From Promethearchaeota archaeon Loki_b32 (GTDB lineage: Archaea > Asgardarchaeota > Lokiarchaeia > Sigyniarchaeales > SOKP01): DNA of 61,161 bases. The number at the start of each line of letters is the position of its first letter. The stretch's first letter is position 1. The translations under genes were made by a program, and so were the position numbers. The DNA lies in assembly GCA_005223125.1 (NCBI GenBank), contig NJBH01000023.1, positions 1-61,161 of the forward strand, read 5' to 3'. Under the pieces are notes generated by a model. The model did no database searches. It was given only the letters and a program-made list of their open reading frames with translations, and was not told the DNA's origin. Below are positions 10,433 to 11,449 of the stretch, piece after piece.

Positions 10433-10612
10433 TGGTCCCCTCTGCCGGCATATCGTGAATTTTTTTTGGAAATTCAACTCGATCCGGCGACCTCTACCGG
10501 TTTGGTTTACTCCAATACTCTCGGTTTCGGCTGACGTAATTTCATTAGCAATTAGCTTTATTACGCGATTTTATCTACAGCCGAGTACTCTACCAGTCTG
10601 AGTTAAGAGGGG
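10433..10612 (-). tRNA. trnY: tRNA-Tyr(GUA) with three introns; exons 10612-10575, 10525-10520, 10493-10478, 10449-10433; CCA encoded
   Basis: The spliced 77-nt product forms a full cloverleaf: CCCCTCT/AGAGGGG acceptor with C1-G72 and A73 (archaeal/eukaryotic Tyr identity), ACTC/GAGT D-stem, CTCGG/CCGAG anticodon stem with CT-GTA-GA loop, GCCGG/CCGGC T-stem. Introns of 49 nt (37/38), 26 nt (43/44) and 28 nt (59/60); the last two have clear BHB motifs. Confidence 0.93.
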
Positions 10613-10899: not shown

Positions 10900-11449
10900 G
10901 TGATAATCATTAGAGAAGAAACAGACTATACTGAGGCAATTGAATCGTACAAGAATGATCCGTATATAATTTTAGAACCATGGGGTAGGAGTATTGATCA
11001 TTTAAGACTTACCATCATCGGGAAGAAGGGAACCCCCTATGCAGAGGGTAAGTTCATTTTTGAAATCAAATTTCCAGAAAGATGAGAGACTATGCGTCCT
11101 CATTCTGGACAATTACCCATTTGCTCCTCCCTATGCTTACGCAGTTACTTTAATGTGGCATCCTAATATTGATTCCTCTATTCCCCCAGGAAAATTGAAC
11201 ATTTGTCTAGACCTAATTAATCCAGATCTTGTAGGTAAGGTGGATGCTTCAACTGGAGCAAGTGGATGGACACCGAGTAAAACTCTGATTAATATTATTG
11301 AAGCTTTAAAAGGAATGATGCATTACGAAGCTCCTTTCTTTAATCCGGGCGATCCATTGAATCATGAAGCAGGAGAACAATATTTCAGAGCCCTTAAGAA
11401 ATTTGAGGGAAAAGCTAACGCTTGGACTAAAAAATACGCGATGGATTGA
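10900..11449 (+). CDS. Ubiquitin-conjugating enzyme E2 (UBC) split by a 31-nt intron; join(10900..11079,11111..11449)
   Basis: Exon 1: I.GKKGTPYAEGKF.FEIKFPE. Exon 2: NYPFAPP...WHPNID...ICLDLI...W.P...L..I...PLN.EA. The joined product is a complete UBC fold with catalytic Cys. Confidence 0.92.
11080..11110 (+). other. Bulge-helix-bulge (archaeal tRNA-type) intron within E2 mRNA
   Basis: CCAG/CTGG central helix, AA^A and AC^A 3-nt bulges, intron stem GATGAG/CTCATT + GAC/GTC; excision restores frame and motif. Confidence 0.85.

What the first reader, a model, noticed from the sequence alone, without database searches (positions are those of the whole stretch)
10433..10612. Triple-intron tRNA-Tyr with a 6-nt micro-exon and apparently ordered splicing
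Seen: introns at 37/38 (49 nt; relaxed motif, G at intron position -3 can pair with C32 like the eukaryotic A-I pair), 43/44 (26 nt; ACCG/CGGT helix, AG^A and AG^A bulges) and 59/60 (28 nt; ATCG/CGAT helix, AG^T and AT^G bulges). Exon 2 is only ACCGAG, and it cannot form the intron-2 helix and the anticodon stem at the same time. Intron 1 ends in CAGCCGA, complementary to exon-1 TCGGCTG, so it can hold the free anticodon arm. Established: multi-intron tRNAs at non-canonical sites are known mainly from Thermoproteales and need a broad-specificity EndA. Inference: intron 2 is removed before intron 1. The host endonuclease tolerates relaxed motifs, which supports the E2 intron.
Basis: partly seen in the sequence, partly recalled or inferred. 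Interest (0 to 1): 0.75.

Follow-up and report, generated by a model that had tools for sequence, protein, structure and literature searches.

The report
Three-intron tyrosine tRNA gene, Asgard archaeon
This is a real gene for the cell's only detectable tyrosine tRNA, cut into four pieces by three tRNA-type introns; such genes are already known in Asgard archaea, but its first intron carries a conserved, probably protein-binding, hairpin that holds the anticodon arm and is worth testing.

Summary
Confirmed. Window 10612-10433 (minus strand) encodes tRNA-Tyr(GUA) with introns of 49, 26 and 28 nt at 37/38, 43/44 and 59/60. Splicing gives a 77-nt cloverleaf. Same-genus species that lack intron 2 or intron 3 show exactly the predicted junctions. 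Intron 3 is a strict bulge-helix-bulge (BHB), intron 2 an HBh' motif, and intron 1 a relaxed hBH (3 of 4 central pairs; G at -3 in 65 of 67 variants). The genome, a Promethearchaeota (Asgard) MAG, has an (alpha-beta)2 EndA with the specific loop, plus RtcB.

Intron 2's motif is about 200-fold more populated while intron 1 is present. However, intron 1's own motif stays strongly disfavoured either way, so the order is likely but not proven.

The anticodon-holding tail is older than intron 2. It belongs to a hairpin with a kink-turn-like motif. This hairpin occurs once per genome in 96 of 121 genomes of the order, and its invariant GA lies exactly 8 nt from the anticodon-pairing CAG.

Multi-intron Asgard tRNAs and ordered BHB processing are already published. 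This scan has noted the same three-intron tRNA-Tyr and the kink-turn module before, on other genomes.

The parts
10575..10612 (-). Exon 1: tRNA positions 1-37 (acceptor 5' strand CCCCTCT, D arm, anticodon stem 5' strand CTCGG, loop CTGTAG with anticodon GTA)
   Evidence: ARAGORN cloverleaf after splicing; conserved in 53 genus loci
10526..10574 (-). Intron 1, 49 nt, at 37/38 (or 38/39): relaxed hBH motif, with H = C32-G(-3), G34-C(-5), U35.G(-6) and a U33xC mismatch; bulges AG^A and AA^A; outer helix = anticodon stem
   Evidence: G at -3 in 65 of 67 distinct orthologous sequences, 3 or 4 central pairs in 66 of 67; present in every orthologue seen
10534..10566 (-). Conserved hairpin inside intron 1: stem GCGUAAU/AUUACGU, internal loop AA / AAU-GA-A (kink-turn-like), capped by the small hairpin AGC-UAAUU-GCU
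   Evidence: covariation: 5 of 7 stem pairs and 3 of 3 inner pairs show compensatory changes, score 0.356 against 0.161 shuffled (0 of 500); GA invariant; one hit per genome in 96 of 121 genomes of the order
10527..10533 (-). Intron 1 tail CAGCCGA, which pairs with U28-G34 (window 10578-10584) and sequesters the anticodon stem 5' strand and C32-G34
   Evidence: P 0.7-0.99 in ViennaRNA ensembles; core CAGC/G31-G34 paired in 100% of 56 distinct sequences; always 8 nt after the invariant GA
10520..10525 (-). Exon 2, 6 nt ACCGAG = positions 38-43 (A38 plus the anticodon stem 3' strand)
   Evidence: invariant in the genus (ACCGAG), ACCGRG or ACCGTG with a matching 5' strand in other genera
10494..10519 (-). 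Intron 2, 26 nt, at 43/44 (or 44/45): HBh' motif, with H = ACCG(38-41)/CGGT, bulges AG^A and AG^A, inner helix GU(A)UUGG/CCAAAC, no outer helix
   Evidence: absent with an exact junction in 26 of 36 distinct genus alleles
10478..10493 (-). Exon 3: positions 44-59 (variable loop AGGTC, T stem 5' strand GCCGG, T loop ATCGAG)
10450..10477 (-). Intron 3, 28 nt, at 59/60: strict hBHBh' motif, with H = ATCG/CGAT, bulges AG^T and AT^G, outer helix = T stem (5 bp), inner helix 7 bp
   Evidence: P about 0.63 in every precursor state; absent with an exact junction (T loop ATCGAGG or ATCGAAG) in G001, G007, G017, G012 and others
10433..10449 (-). Exon 4: positions 60-76 (G60, T stem 3' strand, acceptor 3' strand AGAGGGG, A73, encoded CCA)

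Best explanation
This is the functional, and apparently only, tRNA-Tyr(GUA) gene of a Promethearchaeota (Asgard, Loki-type) archaeon. It is transcribed as a 180-nt precursor with three endonuclease-type introns. These are cut by the genome's (alpha-beta)2 EndA, which carries the specific loop, and the exons are joined by RtcB. Intron 3 (T loop, strict BHB) folds on its own and can go at any time. The intron 1 tail (CAGCCGA) pairs with U28-G34 as soon as it is made, so the precursor's ground state has no anticodon stem. That leaves the 6-nt exon 2 free to form the intron 2 motif, so intron 2 is most easily cut while intron 1 is still in place. Intron 1, a relaxed motif at the canonical site, needs the anticodon stem to displace the tail and is therefore probably removed last. 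The tail and the kink-turn-like hairpin next to it are an old, conserved module of the canonical tRNA-Tyr intron that predates intron 2. Shown here: the gene, the junctions of introns 2 and 3, the motifs, the enzyme set and the conservation. Inferred: the order of cuts, how intron 1 is recognised, and any protein binding.
For: The spliced 77-mer is a canonical tRNA-Tyr. Natural alleles without intron 2 or intron 3 give the predicted junctions, and all four presence/absence combinations occur in the genus. G(-3) is conserved. The EndA alpha subunit has the catalytic triad and loop, and the beta subunit lacks the His. RtcB is present. No other Tyr gene was found by ARAGORN, the Rfam tRNA model, model R1 or my BHB-splicing census. 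Ensembles: the tail helix has P 0.7-0.99 and the anticodon stem about 1e-4; BHB2 has P 0.26-0.68 with intron 1 against 1e-3 to 1e-4 without; BHB3 is about 0.63 throughout. In the red alga C. merolae, RT-PCR showed the anticodon-arm BHB is always processed last (PMC3728597).
Against: There is no RNA data, so neither the mature sequence nor any intermediate has been seen. The nearest-neighbour model puts the canonical intron 1 motif 8.7-10.5 kcal/mol above the ensemble both before and after intron 2 removal, so how EndA reaches it is unexplained. The model ignores tertiary structure, Mg2+, proteins and the unknown growth temperature. A penalty of 4-5.6 kcal/mol for BHB2 after intron 1 loss is not prohibitive for an enzyme that captures minor conformers. 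My tRNA census is incomplete, so 'only Tyr gene' is not proven, and the genome is 95.5% complete.
Confidence: 0.72

Rival explanations
1. The intron 1 hairpin and tail form a cis-acting kink-turn RNP module. L7Ae binds the kink-turn, the tail acts like the 3' guide of an atypical H/ACA RNA, and U35-A36 are presented at the base of the hairpin to Cbf5 (or another modifier) before splicing. On this view the sequestered state is a modification checkpoint, and the splicing order is a by-product. This adds to the best explanation rather than replacing it.
For: The hairpin covaries while GA and RA stay fixed. The bulged strand reads WAU-GA. The GA-to-CAG spacing is exactly 8 nt in 56 of 56 distinct sequences, although the 5' linker varies from 4 to 12 nt. 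The core helix G31-G34/CAGC is paired in 100% of sequences, and it is kept even where a separate, better central-helix strand (GCAG or AUAG) exists further 3'. The module occurs once per genome across the family, in part of a sister family, and in one other family. L7Ae and Cbf5 are present. Precedents: Psi35 of pre-tRNA-Tyr is guided by H/ACA RNPs that pair with the anticodon arm and intron in Sulfolobales (PMC2651775). Atypical H/ACA RNAs without lower stem or ACA work, one has only a 3' guide, and they are modified in cis (PMC11077068).
Against: There is no ACA box, lower stem or 5' guide. The kink-turn lies 8 nt (7 bp plus a bulge) from the target, against the 5-6 reported for archaeal H/ACA RNAs. 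In this genome the 2b.2n pair is A.A, not A.G. An intact Pus7/TruD gene is present and could make Psi35 unaided. Nothing is known about modifications in this organism. The conserved helix could equally serve folding or timing.
Confidence: 0.3
2. There is no preferred order. EndA removes the three introns independently and stochastically by trapping transient BHB conformers, and the competing helices have no kinetic consequence in vivo.
For: Each intron has its own recognisable motif and none is nested. Energy gaps for BHB2 are a few kcal/mol. All presence/absence combinations of introns 2 and 3 are viable in relatives, so neither depends on the other. Orthologues with intron 1 alone must splice it from the same sequestered state.
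Against: BHB2 is 200- to 10,000-fold less populated after intron 1 removal. Order correlates with motif free energy, with the anticodon-arm motif last, in the one system tested.
Confidence: 0.25
3. The gene is a decayed pseudogene, or is spliced differently. For example, the intron 1 tail CCGAA could be the real 3' strand of the anticodon stem, with ACCGAG belonging to an intron or a long variable region.
For: The tail CCGA duplicates exon 2's CCGA. A strict-looking BHB (H UGUA/UACG, outer helix 5 bp) exists at precursor positions 40-80.
Against: The alternative gives a C27xA43 mismatch, an A37-G38 loop and an 11-nt variable region, or it leaves 8 extra nt. The 40-80 motif destroys the covarying stem and is not conserved in other families. 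ACCGAG is invariant while the tail varies (CUGAG, CUGGA, CCGUA, CCGUU) and can be separated from exon 2 by 6-12 extra nt. Exons keep perfect pairing across more than 60 species.
Confidence: 0.03

Closest known systems
Multi-intron tRNA genes of Asgard archaea (Valentin-Alvarado et al. 2024, PMC11291895; Goswami et al. 2026 preprint, 10.64898/2026.10.13.758758) and of Thermoproteales (Sugahara 2007, 2008, cited in PMC4090602)
   Same: Several short BHB-type introns at canonical and non-canonical sites in one tRNA gene. Standard finders miss them. There are repeated gains and losses between close relatives. The host has an (alpha-beta)2 EndA with the specific loop.
   Different: Those papers focus on Jordiarchaeia, Atabeyarchaeia and Thermoproteales. 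In what I read they do not describe this Loki-type genus, this tRNA-Tyr, the 6-nt exon, or a conserved structured canonical intron.
Ordered processing of multiple BHB motifs in Cyanidioschyzon merolae pre-tRNAs (Soma et al. 2013, PMC3728597)
   Same: The pre-tRNA has three introns (D, anticodon and T arms). Order follows motif stability, and the anticodon-arm motif is cut last.
   Different: That host is a eukaryote, its motifs fold independently, and the order was measured by RT-PCR. Here two motifs share nucleotides 38-41 and the order is only modelled.
Box C/D guide embedded in the archaeal pre-tRNA-Trp intron (Clouet d'Orval 2001, Singh 2004; cited in PMC4090602)
   Same: A canonical-site tRNA intron conserved because it carries a kink-turn RNP module that acts on its own tRNA's anticodon arm.
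   Different: There are no C, D, C' or D' boxes and no methylation guide here. The RNA is a single kink-turn hairpin of 33 nt, and the tRNA is Tyr, not Trp.
H/ACA guides for Psi35 of pre-tRNA-Tyr in Sulfolobales and Aeropyrum (Sso1, sR115; PMC2651775, PMC11077068), and atypical H/ACA RNAs lacking lower stem and ACA (S. islandicus sR109, sR136, sR148, sR563)
   Same: A kink-turn hairpin is followed by a 3' strand that pairs with the anticodon arm up to G34 and leaves U35-A36 unpaired. One atypical guide has only a 3' guide, and atypical guides are modified in cis.
   Different: Here the 'guide' is part of the substrate molecule itself. The spacing is 8 nt rather than 5-6, and there is no ACA, lower stem or 5' guide. 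No modification data exist, and Pus7 is intact.

Membership tests
Archaeal EndA-type (BHB) tRNA intron | [quoted passage not shown] | tested here: met
   Intron 3: 4 of 4 pairs, both bulges, outer helix 5 bp, inner helix 7 bp. Intron 2: 4 of 4 pairs and both bulges, inner helix only (HBh').
Archaeal EndA-type (BHB) tRNA intron | The same motif for intron 1 at 37/38 | tested here: inconclusive
   Only 3 of 4 central pairs, with an outer helix of 5 bp (relaxed hBH). The register is conserved, with G(-3) in 65 of 67 sequences. The motif is predicted at P about 1e-6 because the tail helix competes.
Archaeal EndA-type (BHB) tRNA intron | Removal restores a canonical cloverleaf, with junctions matching intron-less homologues | tested here: met
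   ARAGORN calls tRNA-Tyr on the 77-mer. Intron-less alleles exist for introns 2 and 3. No intron-1-less allele was found.
Archaeal EndA-type (BHB) tRNA intron | The host encodes a splicing endonuclease able to cut relaxed or non-canonical motifs, and an RtcB ligase | tested here: met
   Two PF01974 genes. The alpha subunit is most like the A. pernix catalytic subunit, with Y/H/K and the KPR loop. The beta subunit has the catalytic His replaced. RtcB is present.
Archaeal EndA-type (BHB) tRNA intron | Actual cleavage and ligation in vivo or in vitro | not testable with these tools
   No transcript data are held.
Archaeal/eukaryal-type tRNA-Tyr | GUA anticodon, C1-G72 first pair, A73 discriminator, short variable loop | tested here: met
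   Read from the spliced sequence. That these are the identity elements is from my own knowledge of archaeal TyrRS recognition.
Kink-turn / K-loop (L7Ae site) | A canonical stem, a 3-nt bulge, then tandem sheared G.A and A.G pairs leading into a second stem | tested here: inconclusive
   C stem, WAU bulge and G.A (1b.1n) are present in all sequences. In this genome 2b.2n is A.A; it is A.G in G016, G014, G012 and most other genera and families. One extra bulged nucleotide sits in the lower stem. L7Ae binding has not been tested.
Classic archaeal H/ACA guide RNA | Lower stem and ACA box 14-16 nt from the target; bipartite guide | tested here: not met
   There is no ACA at the required distance, no lower stem and no 5' guide (sequence).
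Classic archaeal H/ACA guide RNA | Kink-turn 5-6 nt or bp above the pocket | tested here: not met
   Always 8 nt (7 bp plus one bulge) between GA and the CAG guide-like strand.
Box C/D guide intron (tRNA-Trp type) | C (RUGAUGA) and D (CUGA) boxes with a 10-12-nt antisense element ending 5 nt before D | tested here: not met
   There is no CUGA in intron 1 and only one UGA. Rfam gives no snoRNA or sRNA hit even at E up to 10.

The most novel reading that the evidence does not exclude
The canonical intron of tRNA-Tyr in this Asgard lineage is not junk between splice sites. It is a conserved self-acting RNP module: an L7Ae-binding kink-turn hairpin set at a fixed 8-nt distance from a strand that captures the tRNA's own anticodon arm and exposes U35-A36. 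On this reading it directs modification of the anticodon (Psi35 by Cbf5, in the manner of atypical H/ACA RNAs modified in cis), or it gates the order of processing. The same sequestration is what allowed a second intron to settle at 43/44 and create a 6-nt exon.
Probability: 0.3. Interest if true: 0.8.

Novelty: new variant of a known kind. Interest (0 to 1): 0.5.

Why it matters
As a three-intron tRNA the gene is one more example of a published Asgard and Thermoproteales trait. It still has two practical uses. First, it shows that half of this genome's tRNA set is invisible to standard finders. Second, close relatives provide a natural series of alleles with all combinations of introns 2 and 3, which is ideal material for EndA specificity and order-of-splicing experiments.

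The more interesting point is that the precursor's predicted ground state is not a cloverleaf. A conserved intron tail holds the anticodon arm next to a kink-turn-like hairpin at a fixed distance. If that module binds L7Ae and directs or times a step on its own tRNA, it would be a second kind of functional archaeal tRNA intron after the tRNA-Trp box C/D intron. It would sit in the closest prokaryotic relatives of eukaryotes, where Psi35 of tRNA-Tyr is famously intron-dependent.

Tried and rejected
1. ARAGORN (with and without -i) and Rfam on the unspliced DNA found nothing.
2. An alternative splice using the tail CCGAA as the anticodon stem was rejected. It gives a mismatch, an odd loop and an 11-nt variable region, and the tail is variable while ACCGAG is fixed.
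3. A strict-looking BHB at precursor positions 40-80 was rejected. It leaves 8 extra nt, breaks the covarying stem, and is absent in other families.
4. Box C/D guide: no boxes are present.
5. Classic H/ACA: no ACA or lower stem, and the spacing is wrong. I had dropped the whole H/ACA idea until earlier scan notes pointed me to atypical H/ACA RNAs. It is now kept as a rival at 0.3.
6. Intron transposition within the genome: blastn-short of introns 1-3 finds no other copies. The one 17-nt match of intron 2 lies inside a glycine-cleavage H protein coding sequence and is chance.
7. GC-island detection of hidden tRNAs missed half of the known tRNAs and was dropped for a BHB-removal census. That census is itself incomplete.
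8. The phylum-wide search with my narrow model R1 found the module in only one family outside the order. This is not evidence of absence, but I could not confirm phylum-wide conservation myself.
9. Rfam tRNA search at E up to 10 in the genome gave only 33 hits and did not locate the hidden genes.

Full report
OBSERVATION. On the minus strand, window 10612 to 10433 reads as a tRNA in four pieces. Removing 49 nt (10574-10526), 26 nt (10519-10494) and 28 nt (10477-10450) leaves 77 nt. ARAGORN calls this tRNA-Tyr(gta) with a regular cloverleaf: acceptor CCCCTCT/AGAGGGG (C1-G72), A73, encoded CCA, anticodon loop CUGUAGA, and a 5-nt variable loop. The uncut DNA is invisible to ARAGORN and to every Rfam model, even at E up to 10. 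A mechanical scan for bulge-helix-bulge geometry over the 180 nt gave three results.
- Intron 3 is a strict hBHBh' motif: central helix ATCG/CGAT, bulges AG^T and AT^G, the T stem as a 5-bp outer helix, and a 7-bp inner helix.
- Intron 2 is an HBh' motif: ACCG/CGGT, bulges AG^A and AG^A, an inner helix only.
- Intron 1 is a relaxed hBH at the canonical site: CUGU against GCCG with 3 of 4 pairs, bulges AG^A and AA^A, and the anticodon stem as outer helix.

IS IT MORE THAN CHANCE? The locus is conserved in relatives. In 53 loci of the same genus (36 distinct alleles), intron 1 is always present (49 or 55 nt). Intron 2 is present in 10 alleles, a T-loop intron in 27, both in 6 and neither in 5. 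Alleles without intron 2 read ACCGAG followed directly by CGGTC. Alleles without intron 3 read a T loop of ATCGAGG or ATCGAAG.
One sub-clade of the genus carries its T-loop intron at 57/58 (helix GGCU/GGCU) rather than 59/60, so the T loop was invaded at least twice. Another genus has an unrelated 21-nt intron at 43/44 (L079), and other genera have D-arm introns.
For intron 1 no intron-less allele exists. However, in 67 distinct sequences whose intron lengths run from 45 to 59 nt, the nucleotide at -3 is G in 65, and 66 have 3 or 4 central pairs in the canonical register. This supports a cut at 37/38.

HOST AND ENZYMES. The genome is 4.13 Mb, about 28% GC and 95.5% complete. Its nearest relatives are MAGs named Promethearchaeota or Promethearchaeia, which are Asgard. 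It has two EndA genes.
- The first is most like the catalytic alpha subunit of Aeropyrum pernix. It keeps Tyr, His and Lys and aligns through the KPR of the Crenarchaea-specific loop.
- The second is most like M. jannaschii EndA but has lost the catalytic His, as a structural beta subunit would.
This is the (alpha-beta)2 type with loop L1 that Kaneta et al. reported for Asgard and that is needed for relaxed motifs (PMC5829648). RtcB, L7Ae, Cbf5 and Pus7/TruD are present.
Only 21 to 23 tRNAs are found by standard tools. My own BHB-removal census re-found this Tyr gene as 'two non-canonical introns plus a 49-nt canonical one'. It also uncovered further two-intron genes (Trp, His, SeC, Leu-CAA and others), mostly with introns of 28-31 nt. 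The census is incomplete, and no second Tyr gene appeared.

ORDER OF SPLICING. Nucleotides 38-41 are needed both for the anticodon stem and for the central helix of intron 2, so the two are mutually exclusive; this follows directly from the sequence. ViennaRNA ensembles give the following.
- The helix between U28-G34 and the intron 1 tail CAGCCGA dominates (P 0.7-0.99).
- The anticodon stem is at about 1e-4.
- Intron 3's motif is at about 0.63 in every state.
- Intron 2's motif is the MFE fold of a local construct while intron 1 is present (P 0.26 at 37 C, 0.68 at 20 C). It falls to 1.4e-3 or 7e-5 once intron 1 is removed and the anticodon stem can form.
That supports 'intron 2 before intron 1'. 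It also fits the only measured case: in C. merolae the anticodon-arm motif is always processed last (PMC3728597). [quoted passage not shown]
Removing intron 2 does not make intron 1's motif more available; it stays 8.7-10.5 kcal/mol above the ensemble. And the tail helix is not an adaptation to intron 2, because it is equally strong in all genus alleles that lack intron 2. How EndA gets at intron 1 is therefore open. Possibilities are refolding driven by tertiary structure or proteins, or independent cutting of relaxed half-motifs by the loop-bearing enzyme.

WHAT ELSE IS THERE. Intron 1 is unusually conserved. A covariance model of the anticodon 5' half plus the intron hairpin (R1) hits once per genome in 96 of 121 genomes of the order: 89 of 101 in the family and 6 of 14 in a sister family. 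At phylum level it hits 19 of 21 genomes of the family plus one genome of another family, which shows the same layout by eye. The model is narrow, so misses elsewhere say little.
On 56 distinct sequences, the 7-bp stem shows compensatory changes at 5 pairs and the small inner hairpin at all 3. The covariation score is 0.356, against 0.161 for shuffles (0 of 500) and at most 0.082 for slid partners. The alignment was fitted to the model, which favours the structure.
Between the two helices lies an internal loop that does not vary the way the stems do. It has R-A on the 5' strand and W-A-U-G-A on the 3' strand, and the GA is invariant. That is the layout of a kink-turn: canonical stem, 3-nt bulge, then G.A and A.G or A.A. 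In this genome the second pair is A.A, and one extra nucleotide bulges from the lower stem.
The GA lies exactly 8 nt before the CAG that pairs with C32-G34 in 56 of 56 sequences, while the 5' linker varies from 4 to 12 nt. The CAG(C) is kept even in species that have a separate, better central-helix strand further 3'. So the tail helix seems to be selected for its own sake.

WHAT THE MODULE MIGHT DO. It is not a box C/D guide, because it has no boxes. It is not a classic H/ACA guide either: it has no ACA, lower stem or 5' guide, and its spacing is 8 nt rather than 5-6.
Earlier notes of this scan, written on other genomes, propose a 'self-guide' for Psi35. They led me to Wang et al. 2024 (PMC11077068). 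In Sulfolobus islandicus, atypical H/ACA RNAs without lower stem or ACA are active. One has only a 3' guide. They are pseudouridylated in cis when the sequence 5' of the target pairs with the 3' guide. Psi35 of tRNA-Tyr there is made by an H/ACA RNP.
The topology here is the same: a kink-turn hairpin, then a strand pairing up to G34, with U35-A36 left free. I rate this reading at about 0.3, for three reasons: the spacing rule fails, Pus7 is intact, and nothing is known of modifications in this organism. A folding or timing role, or simple L7Ae chaperoning, is equally possible.

COMPARISON AND NOVELTY. Asgard tRNA genes with several introns, up to five, are published, as is the fact that annotators miss them (PMC11291895; preprint 10.64898/2026.10.13.758758). 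Three-intron tRNAs have been known from Thermoproteales since 2007 (cited in PMC4090602). As a multi-intron tRNA this is a new member of a known kind, and at least six species of the genus share the three-intron state. The conserved kink-turn-like module with its anticodon-holding tail was not found in the papers I could search. It makes the gene a new variant of the 'functional tRNA intron' theme, whose known example is the tRNA-Trp box C/D intron. This scan has seen both the three-intron tRNA-Tyr and the module before on other DNA.

VERDICT. Interest is moderate, 0.5.

Noticed in passing
window 11080-11110 (+), within ORFs 10900-11085 and 11039-11449: A ubiquitin-conjugating (E2/UBC)-like gene is split by a 31-nt insert with BHB geometry (CCAG/CTGG central helix, 6-bp inner helix). 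Removing it joins the two frames into one 172-aa ORF with the HPNI...C motif.
   Followed up: partly
window 10478-10483 and 10449 (T loop of the spliced tRNA); L005, L009, L012 and others: The T loop reads ATCGAGG (A54) in this clade and CTCAAAT or CTCGAAT (C54) in the sister clade, also in alleles with no T-loop intron. So this tRNA-Tyr lacks the usual U54. A54 is one strand of intron 3's central helix.
   Followed up: partly
L006, L010, L022, L042, L047 (intron 1 tail): Some species carry a 6-nt insertion (AUAGAA or AUUGAA) just before exon 2. AUAGAA turns the 3 of 4 central helix of intron 1 into a full 4-bp helix while the CAGCCGA tail is kept upstream. The 'holding' strand and the 'splicing' strand can therefore be separate elements.
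   Followed up: partly
genus loci L011-L027, L036-L065: The sister clade has its T-loop intron at 57/58 (29 nt, helix GGCU/GGCU) instead of 59/60. Intron 2 of both clades is homologous (AGUAUUGG...CCAAAC). All four presence/absence combinations occur, so there have been repeated gains and losses within one genus.
   Followed up: yes
genome G000: C16:19162(+), C32(-), C57(-), C22(-), C48(-), C4(-): These are hidden tRNA genes, recovered only after removing BHB candidates: Trp, His, SeC, Gln or Ile, Leu-CAA and Thr. Each has two or more introns, mostly of 28-31 nt. Only 21-23 of the expected 46 or so tRNAs are visible to ARAGORN or Rfam. Met, Cys, Ser and most Thr genes are still unfound.
   Followed up: partly
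L066, L076, L077, L081-L084, L088, L062: In several other genera, and in one species of this genus, the tRNA-Tyr gene has an AT-rich insert just 5' of position 26 (a D-arm intron). L079 has an unrelated 21-nt intron at 43/44. tRNA-Tyr is an intron hot spot across the family.
   Followed up: no
window 10533-10573 (precursor positions 40-80): A second, strict-looking BHB (UGUA/UACG, 5-bp outer helix from the tail pairing) overlaps intron 1. It would leave 8 extra nt and is not conserved, so it is probably chance. It could still be a decoy site for EndA in the sequestered fold.
   Followed up: partly
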